From assembly GCF_016026235.1 (NCBI RefSeq), contig NZ_CP065613.1: 64,000 nt of DNA; one strand, given 5' to 3'. The DNA is from Escherichia coli. GTDB taxonomy: Bacteria > Pseudomonadota > Gammaproteobacteria > Enterobacterales > Enterobacteriaceae. Below are positions 33,870 through 64,000 of this stretch, piece after piece (the first letter of the stretch is position 1; the number at the start of each line of letters is the position of its first letter). Under the pieces are notes generated by a model. It was not told the origin of the DNA. It was given only the letters and a program-made list of their open reading frames with translations, and ran no database searches. Both the position numbers and the translations under genes were made by a program.

Positions 33870-33896
33870 TTAAGTGAAGGCCGGATATGACGCATT

Positions 33897-34805
<909 letters not shown>

Positions 34806-35356
34806 TCCAGGAGATGCTCCTGCATGGCTTTCAGATATGCATTTTCTGCGCGAAGATAACGCAGCTCATTCTTCATCTCTTCCGGCGTCATGTTTCCCTC
34901 GTTTTCATGGGTATCATCAGAACGGGTCATGCTTTTCTCCTTCCTGCGCCTGATAAAGGCCTCATTACCAGATTTGCGGTAGCCTTTTATCCAGTTTTTA
35001 ACCATGTTGTGGCTGGGAATGTTAAACCGGGCGGCTACCCGGGGTAGAGACTCAGAATGCCCGAGAGCATAAAGAACCACGCAAAGTTTATCTTCAGGAG
35101 AATAGCTACGCTTGTGTCTGCAATCCAGTGCCTGAGGACCGTGAAGAAGAAAAAGATTAATCCAGTGTGAGAGGCTGGTGTGAGAAAGTTGAAAGAGTTT
35201 TGCCGTAGAAATGATGCCTGCATGACCGGCCAGGTAATGATTTACAGCGGCAAGTTTTACTTCAAATGAATGTTTCATAAACTGCACCTTCAGATGTCAG
35301 ATTATGTCCAACATTTGGGGTGCAGTTCATTAAGCGTCGCATCCGGCGAAAGTCAA

Positions 35357-51644: not shown

Positions 51645-52555
51645 GCCTCTCTGACAGCTCCTCCGGGAGCTGTTTTTACATGCTCGCTAAGGAAATCGAT
51701 AAAAGCCCGGATGCGCGTACTTACCGCACGGTCGCTGTAATAGACTGCACTGAATGGCATTTCCACTGGCAACACTTTATCTGCCATTAACTCCACCAAT
51801 TCTCCGCGAGCGATTTCTCTGTCGATCATATAGTCGGACAAACACGCAATCCCGTTGCCACTCAGGCAAAGCTGTTTCAGTGTTTCCCCACTATTGGATG
51901 ACAAACCGTACTTCACCTCATGTAATTGTCCATCGCTACAGGCTATCGGCCAGGTATTGAGGGAAGCGGGTTCAGTGAATCCCAGGCAAACATGTTGCTT
52001 TAAATCGTCGATCGTTTCTGGCTTCCCGTAGCGGGAAATATAATTGGGGGAGGCGATAATTTTTCGATAACTGTTAAATAACGGCCTGGCACGTAAGCTG
52101 GAATCCGTTAACGTACCAGCGCGTATCGCGACATCCACTTTTCTTTCGATCAAATTAATAATCGTTTCGGAGGAGACTAGCGACAAAGTGACTTCCGGAT
52201 AGCGTTCACGGAAAGGCTTAATTAACGGCATCAGAAAGTGCAGCACCACTGGAGTTGCGGCATCGATCCGTAACAGTCCACGCGGTGTATTACGCGTCTC
52301 CATAATTTCTGATTCTGCCGCTGCCATCTCCTGCAAAATTGACTGTACGCGACGAAAATAACGCTCGCCTTCTTCCGTCAGGCTAAGTTGTCGCGTGGTC
52401 CGATTAAGCAGGCTAACGCCAAGTTTCATCTCCAGCTTTTTCACCGCCCGGCTTACCGCAGAGTTTGCTTGCCCTAATTGTTCCGCTGCCCGGCTAAAGC
52501 TGCCGCTTTCTACGACCGAAACAAAAATGGCGAGTTCTTCCGACGTGGCTTTCAT
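51641..52555 (-). CDS. yafC: LysR-family transcriptional regulator YafC
   Basis: 304-aa [67 protein letters not shown]... (LysR HTH). Confidence 0.85.
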
Positions 52556-58825: not shown

Positions 58826-58902
58826 GGAGCGGTAGTTCAGTCGGTTAGAATACCTGCCTGTCACGCAGGGGGTCGCGGGTTCGAGTCCCGTCCGTTCCGC
58901 CA
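58826..58902 (+). tRNA. aspV: tRNA-Asp (GTC)
   Basis: 77-nt sequence identical to the aspU copy at 50602..50678; lies directly after dnaQ. Confidence 0.95.
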
Positions 58903-58932
58903 AATTCACCTCATGAAAATGAGGTTCAGAGA

Positions 58933-58962
58933 ACCGCAAGATTTTTAATTTTGCGGTTTTTT
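58933..58962 (+). terminator. rho-independent terminator after aspV
   Basis: ACCGCAA-loop-TTGCGGT followed by TTTTTT; preceded by a 7-bp GAAA tetraloop hairpin (ACCTCAT-GAAA-ATGAGGT, 58907..58924). Confidence 0.6.
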
Positions 58963-59260
58963 GCATTTAAATCCCGCTATTTCTTCGGTCTATGATTTTG
59001 TTATGCTGTAAATGTGTTAATCACATATGGTAGACCATATCATTAATATTTAATCATACTATCGAATCATTCAATTTAAATATATTTGCATGTTATGATT
59101 TTCATTTTTCTATTGATTTAATGAATTTATATTTGCTGTTATTTTTGTTTGTTCTGATTCAAGTGGAGTATATAATTAAAAATCGTTAGCTAAACATTAC
59201 CATGATTATGACAGGCGAGGGAGTGTCCGATTATGAATTTAAGAAGGGTTTGTTGTATAT

Positions 59261-59845
59261 GTGTATTATTCTCGCTGCTTGCAGGATGTGCCTCTTAATT
59301 CTCCCGTTATACTTGTTCAGTCTGGCAGTCGCGCACCGGAAACCATTATGCAGGAGGAGATGAGAAAATATTATACAGTTGCCACATTTTCTGGCATTCC
59401 TGACAGGCAAAAACCTGTAACTTGTAATAAAGACAAAAACAAAGATGAAAGTCTGGATGTTGTAGATGCCGAAAATATGAACTGGATGCAGGCATTACGT
59501 TTTGTTGCGGCAAAAGGCCATCAGAAAGCGATTATTGTTTTCCAGGATACGTTGCAGACAGGAAAATATGACTCTGGATTGAAATCAATAGTTTGGTCAG
59601 ATTATAAAAATCAAAAATTGACTGACACGATGTCACTGCGTTATTTGGTTCGATTCACGCTGGTGGATGTGGCTACAGGTGAGTGGGCTACCTGGTCGCC
59701 TGTGAATTATGAATCGAAAGTGATTTTTCCGCAGATAGGGAATAAAAATTCTGACAGCCTTGATGTGGCAGAACAGCAGATTTCACAACTTAAGCAGAAA
59801 ACGTACGCAGCAGTGGTTAAAGATCTGGTGAATCGCTATCAGTAG
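59261..59845 (+). CDS. yafT: YafT-like protein body ORF; lipoprotein signal peptide lies upstream in a different frame
   Basis: 194-codon ORF (...[55 protein letters not shown]...); upstream ATG at 59233 encodes [21 protein letters not shown] then TAA at 59296 in a different frame. Internal ATGs at 59348 and 59360, the latter just after AGGAGG. Confidence 0.5.
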
Positions 59846-60186
59846 TAAGGTTTTATACCAGACGTTTTAATGGTACTTAGCAAGAAAGAGCATTTTCTTT
59901 TCTATTTATACTCTGGTTCAAGTCTGCTAATTAATTTTACATATATATTTTTTTAGAAGTAGTAAAAAACTTTACTAAAGTTATTTATTGTTCTCTCAAC
60001 ATATAAGCTGTAGTTCGAGTTTTCGGTTGAACTGTCAAAAATACATCATACACATCTATAAAACAGCAGGTACGGTTAATTAAGAATTTTTATTCGTGAT
60101 TAACCGTACTTTATCATTTTATTTTATAATGTTAAATTGCCTTTTTAAAATATAACAATAATGCAGATGAAAAACTCCCAGGTAAC

Positions 60187-60666
60187 TTAGAAAATCCGTT
60201 CACTCCAAAGGCTGTACGCACTGGTTCCGGCGACGCTGTGCTCCCAGTTAATGCTCTCATAGGTAAATGACACAGACTCTTCCGGCTGTCCTGGGCTGTC
60301 GTTAATGGTATGGGGAACGGTAAGGCCGATGTTTGAGATCCGGGCGTTAGTCAGTTTCACCTTGTAGTACGGTTCATTAACACCAAAGCGGTTGGTGCGA
60401 TAGAATACAAAATCACAGGTCAGACATTCATTCTCCGAAATGGCCTTGCCCAGCAGGGGGGAAGATTTGTCCACCGGTTTCGTGATGGTCAGCTCCTGGT
60501 GGTTGACATTCTGCGCCCGGCTCAGACCATGGGACAGTGACGTCACCATGATCTGATCCTGATGTGCAATCTGGGCTTTGTTACCGATGGACGGCATTGA
60601 CGAGCATCCGGATGAAATCAGCCCCTGAAGTTCTCCGTTCAGTGTCAGATAGACGGGATTTGCCAT
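60187..60666 (-). CDS. hcp: type VI secretion tube protein, Hcp family
   Basis: ORF-track frame 60187..61053 trimmed to ATG (complement 60664..60666) preceded by AAGGAGAATAAC; 159 aa MANPVYLTLNGELQGLISSGCSSMPSIGNKAQIAHQDQIMVTSLSHGL...YKVKLTNARISNIG...FTYESINWEHSVAGTSAYSLWSERIF, Hcp-like length and N/C-terminal pattern. Confidence 0.65.
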   Translation of the reverse strand: MANPVYLTLNGELQGLISSGCSSMPSIGNKAQIAHQDQIMVTSLSHGLSRAQNVNHQELTITKPVDKSSPLLGKAISENECLTCDFVFYRTNRFGVNEPYYKVKLTNARISNIGLTVPHTINDSPGQPEESVSFTYESINWEHSVAGTSAYSLWSERIF

Positions 60667-60683
60667 TGTTATTCTCCTTAAAC

Positions 60684-62042
60684 TCAATGGGTCGGAGGGA
60701 CTGGCACGGTGCTGTTGTCCGTTGCCATATCCTGTCCGGTATTTTTCAGCAACAGCCAGCGGCTTAACAGCCCATCCAGCCGTTGGTTGATCTCTTTTGC
60801 TAGCGCCTGTGTGTCCTGATTCTGCGTGCGGGTCTCCTGGTACTGCGTCAGCAGGTACTCCAGTGGAGTTTCCTGATTCAGTAACCGTTCGGCCTGCCAG
60901 GTCACCGTTTTGATATACGAGAGGGTGAAACCCTGTTTCTCCGTCTCCTTTTTCATCATCAGATCCGCAAAATCCCGCAAATTCTGCCGCGCCTGTTGCC
61001 AGCCCTTCATCTGCGGACTGGCTTGCGCCCGGTTTCTCAGCGTGGTGCTCCACATCCGGCTGGCTTCCTGCTGTTGCAGGCTTTCCGGCCAGAGGGTGTC
61101 TGCGGTGCGCATCATCTGCATTCCGGTTTCCAGCGGCTGTAGCGGTGGGGTATCCAGAAGCTGTTGCAGGTACTGTTCATATTCTTTCAGTACCGGTGAT
61201 GCCAGCCAGACGGTGGCGGCTCCCTGTGCGGTATCCCTGACCTGCGTAAGCTGCCGCTGCATCGGGTACGCCTGCCACCACCAGAGTGCAGCGGCGATAA
61301 CGGCAGTACAGGCGGCACCGGCAACAAAACCTTTTACAGTGCTGCCCTGTCTAACGTTGTCGGCGTTATTTGCCACACCGCGCACCTCCACCCGCATTTC
61401 CGGCAGGTCGGGCAGGGGAGGCACGGCTTCCGCTGTGGTGGAAGCCGTGCTTTCCGGCGCATAGACCAGCGTCCGGACCGTGGTCTGTGCCGCCGTATCA
61501 GTACGGTTTCCGGGCTGCGGTTCAAACCGCTTGCGTGTGTTCTGCACAAAATAAAGCAGGTTTTCCACGCGCGGCTGGCGCTTCAGTTCCACCTGCTGGA
61601 GTTTGTCACAGATAAGCTGTAAAGCCCGTTCCGTGCGGTAGAGCAACGGCAGATCATTTTCGGAAAAGGACACCTGCTGGCGCAGGATATTCCCGGTGCG
61701 GGTATTGAACCAGTCCAGCATCTCAGTCCGCGCCGGGCCACCCTGCGGCCAGAATTTATCCCATTCGTGGTTGATCATCGCTGCCAGCAGTTCCGCGCCT
61801 TCGCAGAACCCTGCCAGTCCCTGATTACGGGTACGCGCCAGTGTATAGTAGGTGGCGGTATGCAAATCCACCCCGTTGGCCTTAAAAATCGACAGCGCCA
61901 GCGATTCCACCAGTTTCCAGTTCAGCTCCGGCTGTGACGGGTGATTAGCCTTGTTAATTTCTTCGCGGATGGCGCTGAACTCCGGCAGGGCGCGCGGATC
62001 GCTGCCGGTAACGATAGTTTGAGTCAGTGCGTTGTTGTTCAT
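60684..62042 (-). CDS. T6SS-associated ImpA-N-domain protein (TssA-family, VasL/TagA-like) with central transmembrane segment
   Basis: ORF-track frame 60684..62183 trimmed to ATG at 62042 (MNNNALTQTIVTGSDPRALPEFSAIREEINKANHPSQPELNWKLVESLALSIFKANGVDLHTATYYTLARTRNQGLAGFCEGAELLAAMINHEWDKFWP...); hydrophobic stretch GFVAGAACTAVIAAALWWW; 10 bp after the tssM stop, 17 bp before hcp. Confidence 0.55.
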   Translation of the reverse strand: MNNNALTQTIVTGSDPRALPEFSAIREEINKANHPSQPELNWKLVESLALSIFKANGVDLHTATYYTLARTRNQGLAGFCEGAELLAAMINHEWDKFWPQGGPARTEMLDWFNTRTGNILRQQVSFSENDLPLLYRTERALQLICDKLQQVELKRQPRVENLLYFVQNTRKRFEPQPGNRTDTAAQTTVRTLVYAPESTASTTAEAVPPLPDLPEMRVEVRGVANNADNVRQGSTVKGFVAGAACTAVIAAALWWWQAYPMQRQLTQVRDTAQGAATVWLASPVLKEYEQYLQQLLDTPPLQPLETGMQMMRTADTLWPESLQQQEASRMWSTTLRNRAQASPQMKGWQQARQNLRDFADLMMKKETEKQGFTLSYIKTVTWQAERLLNQETPLEYLLTQYQETRTQNQDTQALAKEINQRLDGLLSRWLLLKNTGQDMATDNSTVPVPPTH

Positions 62043-62052
62043 CACTATCCCC

Positions 62053-64000
62053 TTAATACAATGTATCCGGTAAACGGAACTGGCTGAACAGACCGCCGGT
62101 GAACGGGTTATCTTCGGTATCCACATGCACCCGGTAAACCATCGCGCCGCCGTCCACGTTAAAGCGCACGTTAAAGGTGTCACTGGTTACGTTGGTCAAC
62201 TGGCCCGCGCCGAACAGGCGGAACTGCGCCCACGGTCCACTGAACGCGATACTGCGCGGTGCTCCGCCGCTGGTGCCAATCAGCGTCAGCTTGCTTTCAT
62301 TGCCTTCACGCATGTTGTTCGGCCAGACCAGATGGGCGGTATAGTTGCGTCCCTGGCTGTAGTCCACTAACTGGCCGTCCAGGTTAAGTACGCTGCGCCG
62401 CTTATTGCCGGAAAGCGATACGGTTTCCACGGCAAACTGTGCGCCCAGTCCGTTCTGCTGGCTAAAGAAGATGTCGCGGATTTTCTGTGCGGTATCCAGT
62501 TGTTGCCGGATATCTTCACGGATCAGCACTCTGCCGTCGTCGCCAAAGGTCAGATCGTTTTCCAGGAACAGTCGCAGGTTGTCCCTGTAGAACGAGTCCA
62601 GAATGCCATCCGGTTTAAAGAAGCGCTCAAACGCATCCAGTGAGGCATCCTGTGGGGCGCGTGGATTAAACGGATAGTTACCGGCAAGCTGTTCGTTGAA
62701 GGGTTTCACCACATTGTCGCGCCAGTCCACTTCCATGTAATGAACGGCTTCCACCATCACTACATGCCAGGCCTGATCCGCCAGCTTGCCCACCCAGCGG
62801 TTAAGAGGCGCAGGCAGGGTTTTTGCCATCTGACGGGTGGCGAAGATTGGATCGCTGCTGTTTTGATCCAGCCGTAGCTGTACTGCTTTCAGCGCCGATT
62901 TCCCAGACACTGGCGAGTTCTGAATCGCCAGCAGGTAACGGTGCAGCTCGGTCAGTTGCTGGTACACGGCCTGTAGCGTACTCGCCTTGTCCTTTTGCTC
63001 CTCCAGTGCGCTATTTTCCGGCGCGAGCTCATGTCCCAGCCGGGATAACAGGCGGTAATCCATCTCATTTATCGCCGCTTCCCTCGCCTTATCATCCAGT
63101 TTGCCGGAGAGCGTCAGCGCGTGTGTATTATCGCGCAGCGCCGTCAGCGCACGCTGGAATGGCTGATCGCCGCTGATAATCTGCTCCAGCGCGTCGGTCA
63201 GCACCGGCATGGCCTCATAGTCACGGACGTTGAGATTATCCATTCCGGCACGCCATGTAGCGGTATAGTCACTGAGGTACTGTTCAGTGATATGGCGCTG
63301 GATCTCTTCACGGTCGGCCTCGCTGTAGGCGACGCTTTGCGTCAGGTTCAGCACCCACGAATCCAGCGCGGTCAACTCAACGAGACCGTCGTGTTGTTTG
63401 ATAAAATAGCTTTGCAGGCCATAGCGGGTGAGAAACTGCGGGATCACCAGTTTTTCATCATTACCGGCGACGAACACGTTGTCGAAGGTGGGACCAACCT
63501 GGTCGCGCAAATTCAAATCGGCGGGCAACACGCTTAATGCTTTGGTGCGCAGGGTCTGGTAGACACGCTGGTATATCGGCAGTTTGCTCAGTTCATGTTG
63601 CGCATTAATGACCGCTTTATCATAGGGTGTCCAGCGGCTGATGGCGTCGCTGTCGCCGCTCTGGCGCTGCGCGTGCCAGTCGGTGTGTTCCAGCGCATAG
63701 TCCAGATGTGCCATCAGTTGCGCCTGAATATCACGCTGGCCGTGAAATTCATTGCTCCAGCGCCGCGCCATGTACTGTTTTACCGCCTCGTTGTTGCGCC
63801 CACTTTTGTCTTCCATCATGCGCACTACGCGCAGCACGGCGAGTTTTTCTTCACTCTCAGGCGGGGCATTGTTCAGATCCCGGATCAGGCCGTTCATTAA
63901 CGAGGGGAGATAACGCTGCTCAAGAAGCTGAATGTAGGTTTGTTCCACATATGACCCTACGCGGACGCCCTGGTACAATCCCATATCCGCCAGAAAACCG
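62053..64000 (-). CDS. tssM: type VI secretion membrane protein TssM (IcmF-like), C-terminal part; gene continues beyond window end
   Basis: More than 640 codons open on the minus strand from the window edge to the stop at 62053; size, the downstream ImpA-like and Hcp genes, and recalled IcmF C-terminal character support TssM; not verified by search. Confidence 0.55.
   Translation of the reverse strand, partial: GFLADMGLYQGVRVGSYVEQTYIQLLEQRYLPSLMNGLIRDLNNAPPESEEKLAVLRVVRMMEDKSGRNNEAVKQYMARRWSNEFHGQRDIQAQLMAHLDYALEHTDWHAQRQSGDSDAISRWTPYDKAVINAQHELSKLPIYQRVYQTLRTKALSVLPADLNLRDQVGPTFDNVFVAGNDEKLVIPQFLTRYGLQSYFIKQHDGLVELTALDSWVLNLTQSVAYSEADREEIQRHITEQYLSDYTATWRAGMDNLNVRDYEAMPVLTDALEQIISGDQPFQRALTALRDNTHALTLSGKLDDKAREAAINEMDYRLLSRLGHELAPENSALEEQKDKASTLQAVYQQLTELHRYLLAIQNSPVSGKSALKAVQLRLDQNSSDPIFATRQMAKTLPAPLNRWVGKLADQAWHVVMVEAVHYMEVDWRDNVVKPFNEQLAGNYPFNPRAPQDASLDAFERFFKPDGILDSFYRDNLRLFLENDLTFGDDGRVLIREDIRQQLDTAQKIRDIFFSQQNGLGAQFAVETVSLSGNKRRSVLNLDGQLVDYSQGRNYTAHLVWPNNMREGNESKLTLIGTSGGAPRSIAFSGPWAQFRLFGAGQLTNVTSDTFNVRFNVDGGAMVYRVHVDTEDNPFTGGLFSQFRLPDTLY

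What the first reader, a model, noticed from the sequence alone, without database searches (positions are those of the whole stretch)
59846..64000. Distal end of a type VI secretion gene block at the aspV tRNA island
Three co-directional minus-strand genes (tssM partial, an ImpA-N/TssA-family membrane protein, hcp) are packed with 10-bp and 17-bp spacers and read toward tRNA-Asp aspV. They sit in the AT-rich segment that starts right after the tRNA, a classic island integration site. This locus carries no T6SS in E. coli K-12 as I recall it, so this is accessory content. Only the tail of the cluster is visible; core genes, effectors and immunity genes would lie beyond 64000.
Basis: partly seen in the sequence, partly recalled or inferred. 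Interest (0 to 1): 0.6.

Follow-up and report, generated by a model that had tools for sequence, protein, structure and literature searches.

The report
Tail of known E. coli T6SS-2

Summary

- **hcp**, 60187-60666, 159 aa.
- **An ImpA_N / transmembrane / VasL protein**, 60684-62042, 452 aa.
- **The C-terminal 648 codons of tssM**, 62053 to beyond 64000.

The spacers are 10 and 17 bp, and each holds a Shine-Dalgarno motif. Profile HMMs confirm all three families, with E-values from 1e-20 to 1e-161.

The DNA is 99.9% identical to E. coli FDAARGOS_943. In that strain the same genes end a complete T6SS-2-type cluster of about 37 kb lying between yafT and yafV. The DNA is about 95% identical to ExPEC S88, and the proteins are 69-81% identical to those of O157:H7 Sakai.

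K-12 carries ykfM-yafU-yafF at this position and shows no T6SS similarity. At least 894 of 5426 complete E. coli genomes carry the block.

- The middle gene is the accessory sheath stopper TagA, not core TssA.
- The three genes are not AT-rich (51.5-58% GC). Only yafT and the intergenic regions are.
- The junction with K-12 lies after yafT, not at the tRNA.
- No integrase or tRNA repeat was found.

The aspV-linked T6SS is published for EAEC 042, EHEC and APEC. It is already known and of low interest.

The parts
58826..58902 (+). tRNA-Asp (GTC) aspV. This is the landmark of the locus and is not part of the T6SS.
   Evidence: ARAGORN and Rfam tRNA. It is identical to K-12 aspV. The hairpin at 58927-58963 followed by a T-run is probably its terminator (I3).
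59233..59848 (+). yafT lipoprotein gene, disrupted here by a 173-bp deletion between two copies of TGTGCCTCT. The surviving copy is at 59287-59295. The reading frame from the ATG at 59233 stops after 21 codons. The gene is shared with K-12, so it lies outside the accessory block.
   Evidence: Alignment with FDAARGOS_943, translation, and blastn against K-12, where similarity ends at 59848.
59849..60186 (.). AT-rich (26.9% GC) spacer between the convergent yafT and hcp genes. It begins at the point where similarity to K-12 ends. It contains a hairpin at 60070-60109, which I infer to be a bidirectional terminator for the T6SS operon and yafT.
   Evidence: GC content. Inverted repeat I2 has 18-nt arms that are 89% complementary. 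The minus-strand RNA folds at -17.5 kcal/mol with z = -3.65. The simple terminator scan did not flag it.
60187..60666 (-). hcp (tssD), 159 aa, the last gene of the main T6SS operon. Its position identifies it as the 'Hcp2A' type, because the operon is described as vipA2-hcp2A. It lacks the extended L2,3 (Vs2) loop.
   Evidence: TIGR03344 at 204.6 bits against a cutoff of 58.9 and PF05638 at 3e-24. The closest solved Hcps are 6a2v, 3he1 and 5mxn. It is 100% identical to FDAARGOS_943, 96.9% to S88 and 69% to Sakai. It is 29% identical to the vgrG-linked Hcp, with a 9-residue gap at position 55/56. Nomenclature follows PMC5874247.
60684..62042 (-). tagA (vasL), 452 aa. It has ImpA_N at residues 12-113, one hydrophobic segment at about 235-257, and VasL at 288-432. 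It is a class-B TssA-like accessory protein (sheath stopper and membrane anchor).
   Evidence: PF06812 at 6.9e-20 and PF12486 at 7.8e-25. It falls below both TssA equivalog cutoffs: 88 against 230 bits and 39 against 161 bits. The Kyte-Doolittle peak is at residue 235. It is 28.9% identical over 450 aa (E = 2.6e-51) to the ImpA_N-TM-VasL ORF beside Sci-1 in EAEC 042. PGAP calls the orthologue a 'VasL domain-containing protein'. The class definition comes from PMC6745524.
62053..64000 (-). The 3' 56% of tssM (icmF/vasK). This is the periplasmic part of the inner-membrane subunit of the TssJLM membrane complex. The 5' 510 codons lie beyond the window.
   Evidence: TIGR03348 at 539 bits against a cutoff of 388, covering profile positions 510-1168. 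IcmF-related, IcmF_helical and IcmF_C are all hit. It aligns to residues 511-1158 of the 1158-aa TssM of FDAARGOS_943 at 99.7% identity.

Best explanation
The segment is the promoter-distal end of the main operon of the E. coli type VI secretion system 2 (T6SS-2). This is the Vibrio cholerae VAS-like cluster that fills the variable interval between yafT and yafV, next to tRNA-Asp aspV.

The three genes are tightly packed and probably co-transcribed from a promoter upstream of tssB, outside the window.
- **TssM.** Only its periplasmic half is visible. Together with TssJ and TssL it forms the envelope-spanning membrane complex on which the baseplate docks.
- **Hcp.** It forms the hexameric rings of the inner tube that is expelled when the TssBC sheath contracts.
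- **TagA.** It is anchored in the inner membrane by its single hydrophobic segment. It captures the distal end of the growing sheath through its ImpA_N domain, stops polymerisation and holds the sheath extended until firing.

Transcription probably ends at the hairpin at 60070-60109, before the convergent yafT.

Shown here: gene identities, order, intactness, location, near-identity to complete clusters in other strains, and absence from K-12. Inferred from published work on homologues: the molecular roles. Unknown: whether the rest of the cluster is intact in this strain.
For: - Family assignments come from NCBIfam and Pfam and from solved Hcp structures.
- The spacers are 10 and 17 bp, each with an SD motif.
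- The DNA is 99.9% identical to FDAARGOS_943, whose annotated cluster runs tssB-tssC-tssE-tssF-tssG-tagH-tssJ-tssK-tssL-tssH-vasI-tssA-tssM-VasL-hcp. A divergent hcp-vgrG-effector arm follows, up to yafV.
- S88 and O157:H7 Sakai show the same order at the same site, and the gene lengths are the same in S88.
- Literature: a T6SS at aspV is described in EAEC 042 and many ExPEC (PMC2808357). A 37-kb aspV-linked, H-NS-repressed functional T6SS is described in EHEC EDL933 (PMC5363993).
- Literature: an FHA gene plus two tssA-like and two hcp genes is described as a T6SS-2-type structure (PMC10711316). The vipA2-hcp2A operon is described in PMC5874247. TagA function is described in PMC6745524.
Against: - Only the last three genes are visible, so completeness and activity in this strain cannot be judged.
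- The closest relative has tssC split by IS21.
- No expression or secretion data exist for this sequence.
- The hairpin terminator is AT-rich, and the consensus scan did not call it.
- TagA is only 29% identical to the experimentally studied EAEC TagA, so its role is inferred from shared architecture.
Confidence: 0.95

Rival explanations
1. The block is a decayed remnant. The T6SS-2 in this strain is inactivated by an IS insertion or a deletion beyond 64000, so the three genes seen here are intact but functionless passengers.
For: - The nearest relative (99.9% identical) has tssC interrupted by IS21, plus IS1, IS600 and ISAs1 copies in the effector arm.
- This window's strain also shows local decay and IS activity: a yafT deletion and an IS3-family insertion at 33896-35327.
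- Lineage-wide T6SS loss through IS insertion in tssM is documented in ST131 (PMC10711316).
Against: - All three visible genes are full-length and free of frameshifts, and they have the same lengths as in S88.
- The window lacks the yafC-yafD IS1 of FDAARGOS_943, so it is a different strain and need not share tssC::IS21.
Confidence: 0.3
2. The middle gene is the core TssA that primes and caps sheath polymerisation, as the reader's label 'TssA-family' would allow.
For: There is an ImpA_N domain, and there are weak hits to the TssA equivalogs TIGR03362 and TIGR03363 over the N-terminal ~200 residues.
Against: - The scores are far below the curated cutoffs: 88 against 230 bits, and 39 against 161 bits.
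- The C-terminal part is a hydrophobic segment plus VasL, not a TssA C-terminal domain.
- Relatives have a separate bona fide tssA immediately upstream of tssM.
Confidence: 0.03
3. The block is a classic integrase-mediated genomic island inserted into the 3' end of aspV.
For: It lies close to a tRNA gene, it is absent from K-12, and its flanks are AT-rich. Published descriptions call it tRNA-associated (PMC5363993).
Against: - yafT, which K-12 shares, lies between the tRNA and the junction. Similarity to K-12 ends at 59848.
- No integrase is annotated anywhere from aspV to yafV in FDAARGOS_943, S88 or Sakai.
- There is no repeat of the aspV 3' end in the relative's island beyond chance 10-14-mers.
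- K-12 holds a different small cassette (ykfM-yafU) plus an ISAs1 remnant (yafF) that matches the ISAs1 copy at the yafV end of the T6SS islands. This points to replacement by flanking homologous recombination or to IS- or Rhs-mediated deletion.
Confidence: 0.07

Closest known systems
E. coli T6SS-2 of ExPEC/APEC/NMEC (e.g. S88; the 'vipA2-hcp2A' main operon with a divergent hcp2B-vgrG2 operon)
   Same: - Same site (aspV-yafT | cluster).
- Same order tssM-VasL/tagA-hcp, and same gene lengths (159 and 452 aa).
- 95% DNA identity. Protein identities are 96.9% (Hcp), 93.4% (TagA) and 95.8% (TssM).
- The published operon structure fits (PMC5874247).
   Different: - The allele is about 5% diverged.
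- The effector arm in the closest relative carries M35 peptidase, DUF4123 and a Tle1-like protein rather than the DUF2169 arm of S88. All of this lies outside the window.
- yafT is disrupted in this window.
aspV-linked T6SS of EHEC O157:H7 (EDL933 z0243-z0275; Sakai ECs_0216-0218 for these three genes)
   Same: The location and gene order are the same. The EHEC system is functional and H-NS-repressed (PMC5363993).
   Different: - It is a clearly diverged allele: Hcp 69%, TagA 76% and TssM 81% identical.
- Sakai has four extra small ORFs (ECs_0212-0215) between yafT and hcp, and Rhs effectors.
Vibrio cholerae VAS cluster end, vasK (tssM)-vasL (tagA, VCA0121)
   Same: The tssM-tagA adjacency is the same, as is the ImpA_N + hydrophobic + VasL architecture. 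The wider order (FHA, tssJ, tssK, tssL, clpV, vasI, tssA, tssM, tagA) is seen in the relatives. TagA_VC stops sheath polymerisation and anchors the sheath (PMC6745524).
   Different: No V. cholerae sequence was compared here. The E. coli cluster lacks a VasH-type sigma-54 activator in the annotated relatives and ends with an hcp gene.
TagA of EAEC (Sci-1/T6SS-1 accessory protein, Santin et al. 2018, as cited in PMC6745524)
   Same: The three-part architecture is the same, and the alignment runs over 450 aa with E = 2.6e-51.
   Different: - Identity is only 28.9%.
- It belongs to a different T6SS subtype.
- That the 042 ORF at NC_017626.1 4884070-4885437 is EC042_4550 is my recollection, not checked here.
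Core TssA (TIGR03362/TIGR03363)
   Same: It shares the N-terminal ImpA_N domain.
   Different: The score is below cutoff, the C-terminus is different, and a membrane segment is present. It is not a member.

Membership tests
Hcp / TssD tube protein | Full-length match to the family profile above the curated cutoff | tested here: met
   TIGR03344 scores 204.6 bits against a cutoff of 58.9, covering residues 1-156 on profile positions 1-166 of 167. PF05638 scores 3.3e-24. Solved Hcps are hit at 2e-22.
Hcp / TssD tube protein | Forms hexameric rings and is secreted in a T6SS-dependent way | not testable with these tools
   This needs biochemistry or a secretion assay.
TssM (IcmF-like membrane-complex subunit) | Match to the TssM equivalog above cutoff, with the periplasmic IcmF-related, helical and C-terminal domains | tested here: met
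   TIGR03348 scores 539 bits against a cutoff of 388 on a partial protein. PF06761, PF21070 and PF06744 are hit.
TssM (IcmF-like membrane-complex subunit) | N-terminal transmembrane helices and cytoplasmic NTPase domain | not testable with these tools
   These lie beyond 64000. They are present in the 1158-aa orthologue of FDAARGOS_943, which is 99.7% identical over the shared part.
TagA (class-B TssA-like, ImpA_N + membrane segment + VasL) | N-terminal ImpA_N domain | tested here: met
   PF06812 scores 6.9e-20 over residues 12-113.
TagA (class-B TssA-like, ImpA_N + membrane segment + VasL) | Central hydrophobic / transmembrane region | tested here: met
   There is a single Kyte-Doolittle peak (1.72 over 19 residues) at 235-257, VKGFVAGAACTAVIAAALWWW. 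No dedicated TM predictor was run.
TagA (class-B TssA-like, ImpA_N + membrane segment + VasL) | C-terminal VasL domain (PF12486) | tested here: met
   PF12486 scores 7.8e-25 over residues 288-432, covering the full model 1-146 of 147.
TagA (class-B TssA-like, ImpA_N + membrane segment + VasL) | Localises to the distal sheath end, stops polymerisation and stabilises the extended sheath | not testable with these tools
   This is known for the EAEC and V. cholerae homologues (PMC6745524). Here it is inferred.
Core TssA | Score at or above the equivalog cutoff, with a TssA-type C-terminal oligomerisation domain | tested here: not met
   The scores are 88.2 against 230.1 bits and 39.2 against 160.85 bits, and only the N-terminal ~200 residues align.
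E. coli T6SS-2 cluster | Chromosomal position next to aspV, between yafT and yafV, with the terminal order tssM-tagA-hcp | tested here: met
   The window layout is the same as in S88, Sakai and FDAARGOS_943. The aspV location is published.
E. coli T6SS-2 cluster | FHA protein TagH, a second tssA-like gene and a second hcp gene (PMC10711316); no tagL annotated (tagL marks the T6SS-1 locus in that paper) | not testable with these tools
   These lie outside the window. They are seen only in near-identical relatives, and the criteria come from PMC10711316.
Integrase-type tRNA-linked genomic island | Integrase gene adjacent to the tRNA, and a direct repeat of the tRNA 3' end at the far boundary | tested here: not met
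   No integrase is annotated from aspV to yafV in three strains. There is no repeat longer than chance 10-14-mers. K-12-shared yafT separates the tRNA from the junction.

The most novel reading that the evidence does not exclude
The operon-terminal hcp encodes a loop-less (Vs2-lacking, 'type IIa') Hcp that is not the main tube-building subunit. That role would fall to the 172-aa Hcp next to vgrG. The terminal Hcp would instead be a specialised secreted or chaperone Hcp, and its co-transcription with tagA would tie its supply to termination of sheath growth.
Probability: 0.12. Interest if true: 0.3.

Novelty: already known. Interest (0 to 1): 0.08.

Why it matters
The finding mainly helps annotation. 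It marks this genome as a T6SS-2-positive E. coli, a trait the literature links to virulent lineages and interbacterial competition. It gives correct names for three genes, tagA in particular. It places the boundary of the accessory block after yafT rather than at the tRNA. It opens no new question, because the system, its location and the roles of all three proteins are published.

Tried and rejected
- **K-12 ykfM as a decayed hcp.** ykfM is also 159 aa, lies on the same strand and sits in the same position, so I suspected it was a remnant of hcp, and yafU a remnant of tagA. This is rejected. BLASTP finds no alignment, tblastn of all three proteins against the K-12 locus finds nothing, and ykfM/yafU DNA has no counterpart in the T6SS-positive islands.
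- **att-like repeat or integrase.** I looked for a repeat of the aspV 3' end and for an integrase in the relative's island. Neither was found.
- **Terminator scan.** The consensus scan did not call a terminator after hcp. A hairpin at 60070-60109 was then found by repeat search and folding. It remains an inference.
- **The yafT deletion in other genomes.** I searched 5426 complete E. coli genomes for the same deletion junction. All twelve best-ranked genomes listed (of 4150 with a match) match in two pieces spanning 373 bp, so they are undeleted.
- **Rfam scan of the window.** Within the finding's coordinates it found nothing. Elsewhere it found only tRNAs, rRNAs and known small RNAs.
- **Plus-strand ORFs inside the genes.** ORFs of up to 184 aa (e.g. 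60910-61464) overlap the GC-rich genes. They are unannotated in all relatives, and I treated them as antisense artefacts.
- **Searches not run.** I did not use the large protein-database, metagenome or structure-prediction searches, because the identification was already unambiguous.


Full report
**The observation.**
ORF listing and translation show three minus-strand reading frames in 60187-64000:
- a 159-aa frame at 60187-60666;
- a 452-aa frame at 60684-62042, taking the ATG that has an SD motif; the mechanical ORF extends further upstream into tssM;
- a frame that is open from its stop at 62053 to the window end, 648 codons with no internal stop.

Each is preceded by AAGGGGA or AAGGAGA. 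tRNA-Asp(GTC) lies at 58826-58902 on the plus strand, so the genes do read toward it.

One descriptive element is wrong. The three genes are not AT-rich: GC is 0.515, 0.581 and 0.560, against 0.512 for the whole window. The AT-rich sequence is the aspV-yafT spacer (0.288), yafT (0.407) and the yafT-hcp spacer (0.269).

**Gene identities.**
- *Hcp.* NCBIfam gives TIGR03344 (Hcp/TssD) at 204.6 bits against a cutoff of 58.9, and Pfam adds T6SS_HCP. The closest solved Hcps are 6a2v, P. aeruginosa Hcp3 (3he1) and 5mxn, a haemolysin co-regulated protein entry.
- *TssM.* NCBIfam gives TIGR03348 at 539 bits against a cutoff of 388. The window fragment covers profile positions 510-1168. Pfam adds IcmF-related, IcmF_helical and IcmF_C.
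- *Middle protein.* Pfam gives ImpA_N at residues 12-113 and VasL at 288-432. A single hydrophobic segment lies at about 235-257. It hits the two TssA equivalogs only over its N-terminus and far below their cutoffs.

This is the architecture that the literature defines as TagA, the class-B TssA-like protein: an ImpA_N domain, a membrane segment, then VasL (PMC6745524). The protein aligns over 450 residues (28.9% identity, E = 2.6e-51) with the ImpA_N-TM-VasL ORF beside the Sci-1 cluster of EAEC 042.

**What lies beyond the window.**
The 5.3 kb from aspV to the window end is 99.9% identical to E. coli FDAARGOS_943. In that genome the order continues tssM, tssA, vasI, tssH, icmH/tssL, tssK, tssJ, tagH (FHA), tssG, tssF, tssE, tssC and tssB. 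A divergent arm follows with a second hcp, vgrG, an M35 peptidase, DUF4123, DUF3304 proteins and a Tle1-like phospholipase, then ISAs1 remnants and yafV. The whole block is about 37 kb. In that strain tssC is split by IS21.

ExPEC S88 has the same layout and the same gene lengths at about 95% DNA identity. O157:H7 Sakai has it as a diverged allele, with Hcp 69%, TagA 76% and TssM 81% identical. By megablast, 894 of 5426 complete E. coli genomes carry the block: 579 at 90% identity or more, and 315 at 60-80%.

**K-12 and the nature of the 'island'.**
Similarity to K-12 MG1655 runs through aspV and yafT and stops 3 bp after the yafT stop codon, at window position 59848. K-12 then has ykfM, yafU, yafF and yafV.

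I tested whether ykfM (also 159 aa) is a decayed hcp, and it is not. K-12 yafF is an ISAs1 remnant that matches the ISAs1 copy next to yafV in the T6SS-positive strains. ykfM-yafU has no counterpart there.

No integrase is annotated in the interval in three strains, and no repeat of the tRNA 3' end was found. The locus therefore looks like a yafT-yafV replacement hotspot with alternative cargo, rather than an integrase-type tRNA island.

**Mechanism (inferred from characterised homologues).**
- *TssM* forms the membrane complex with TssJ and TssL.
- *Hcp* forms the expelled tube. Its position as the last gene of the tssB-to-hcp operon makes it the 'Hcp2A' of the APEC/NMEC nomenclature (PMC5874247). 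It lacks the extended L2,3 loop that is present in the vgrG-linked Hcp.
- *TagA* sits in the membrane, captures the distal sheath end, stops polymerisation and holds the sheath extended (PMC6745524).

A hairpin at 60070-60109 lies about 80 nt past the hcp stop. Its arms are 18 nt long, and the minus-strand RNA folds at -17.5 kcal/mol with z = -3.65. It is a plausible terminator shared with the convergent yafT, although the consensus scan did not call it.

**Comparison with what is known.**
An aspV-linked T6SS was described in EAEC 042 and many ExPEC (PMC2808357). It was shown to be functional and H-NS-repressed in EHEC EDL933 (PMC5363993). The combination of an FHA protein with two tssA-like and two hcp genes is described as a T6SS-2-type structure, and no tagL, which marks the T6SS-1 locus, is annotated in the relatives (PMC10711316). 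Nothing about the three genes here departs from that description.

**Verdict.**
The locus is already known, so interest is low. The main open point is whether the cluster is intact in this strain, and the window cannot answer that.

**Side observations.**
- yafT carries a 173-bp deletion between 9-bp repeats, which removes everything after the lipoprotein signal peptide. All twelve best-ranked complete genomes listed (of 4150 with a match) are undeleted there.
- An IS3-family element is inserted between tilS and rof.
- yaeI is missing relative to K-12.

Noticed in passing
window 59233-59848 (junction repeat at 59287-59295): yafT has a 173-bp out-of-frame deletion between two copies of TGTGCCTCT. 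The frame from the ATG stops after 21 codons, just past the lipobox cysteine. All twelve best-ranked complete E. coli genomes listed (of 4150 with a match) match this junction in two pieces, which means they are undeleted.
   Followed up: yes
window 33896-35327: A ~1.43-kb insertion lies between tilS and rof relative to K-12. It carries two minus-strand ORFs (176 aa and 240 aa) that match the IS3-family transposase model, consistent with an OrfA/OrfB frameshift arrangement. I did not look for element ends or a target duplication.
   Followed up: partly
window 5468-5595: The K-12 yaeI phosphodiesterase gene (~840 bp between yaeH and dapD) is absent. It is replaced by 128 bp that do not align to K-12.
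   Followed up: partly
window 11113-11124 and 13015-13019: Two intergenic stretches of ~130-145 bp that are present in K-12 (rpsB-tsf and pyrH-frr spacers) are missing from the window. I suspect REP/BIME elements but did not check.
   Followed up: no
L001 13089-13786, 40645-42614 and 20127-20203 (FDAARGOS_943): The 99.9%-identical relative differs from the window in three ways. It has an IS1 between yafC and yafD, flanked by a 10-bp duplication at window 52540-52549. Its tssC is split by IS21. Its aspV copy has a T48G difference.
   Followed up: partly
L004 1873-3514 (O157:H7 Sakai): Four small hypothetical ORFs (ECs_0212-0215) lie between yafT and hcp in Sakai and are absent from the window and from S88. 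They could be cargo or immunity genes downstream of hcp.
   Followed up: no
L002 4099-4378 (K-12 yafF region): The K-12 pseudogene yafF is an ISAs1 (H-repeat) remnant, 98% identical to the end of the ISAs1 copy in the Sakai T6SS island. K-12 ykfM-yafU has no counterpart in the T6SS-positive islands. The two states of the locus therefore share the yafV-side scar.
   Followed up: partly
L007 4071-5438 (EAEC 042, NC_017626.1 4884070-4885437): RefSeq annotates this ImpA_N-TM-VasL gene as three partial pseudogene pieces. Yet frame 0 is an uninterrupted 455-codon ORF, so this is probably an annotation artefact.
   Followed up: partly
window 60070-60109: An 18-nt-arm hairpin lies in the AT-rich spacer between the convergent yafT and hcp genes, with T-rich tracts on both sides. 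It is a candidate bidirectional terminator.
   Followed up: partly
summary: One of the 894 matches to the hcp-tagA-tssM block is on a plasmid, which is consistent with the published note of a T6SS-2 region on an F-type plasmid (PMC10711316).
   Followed up: no
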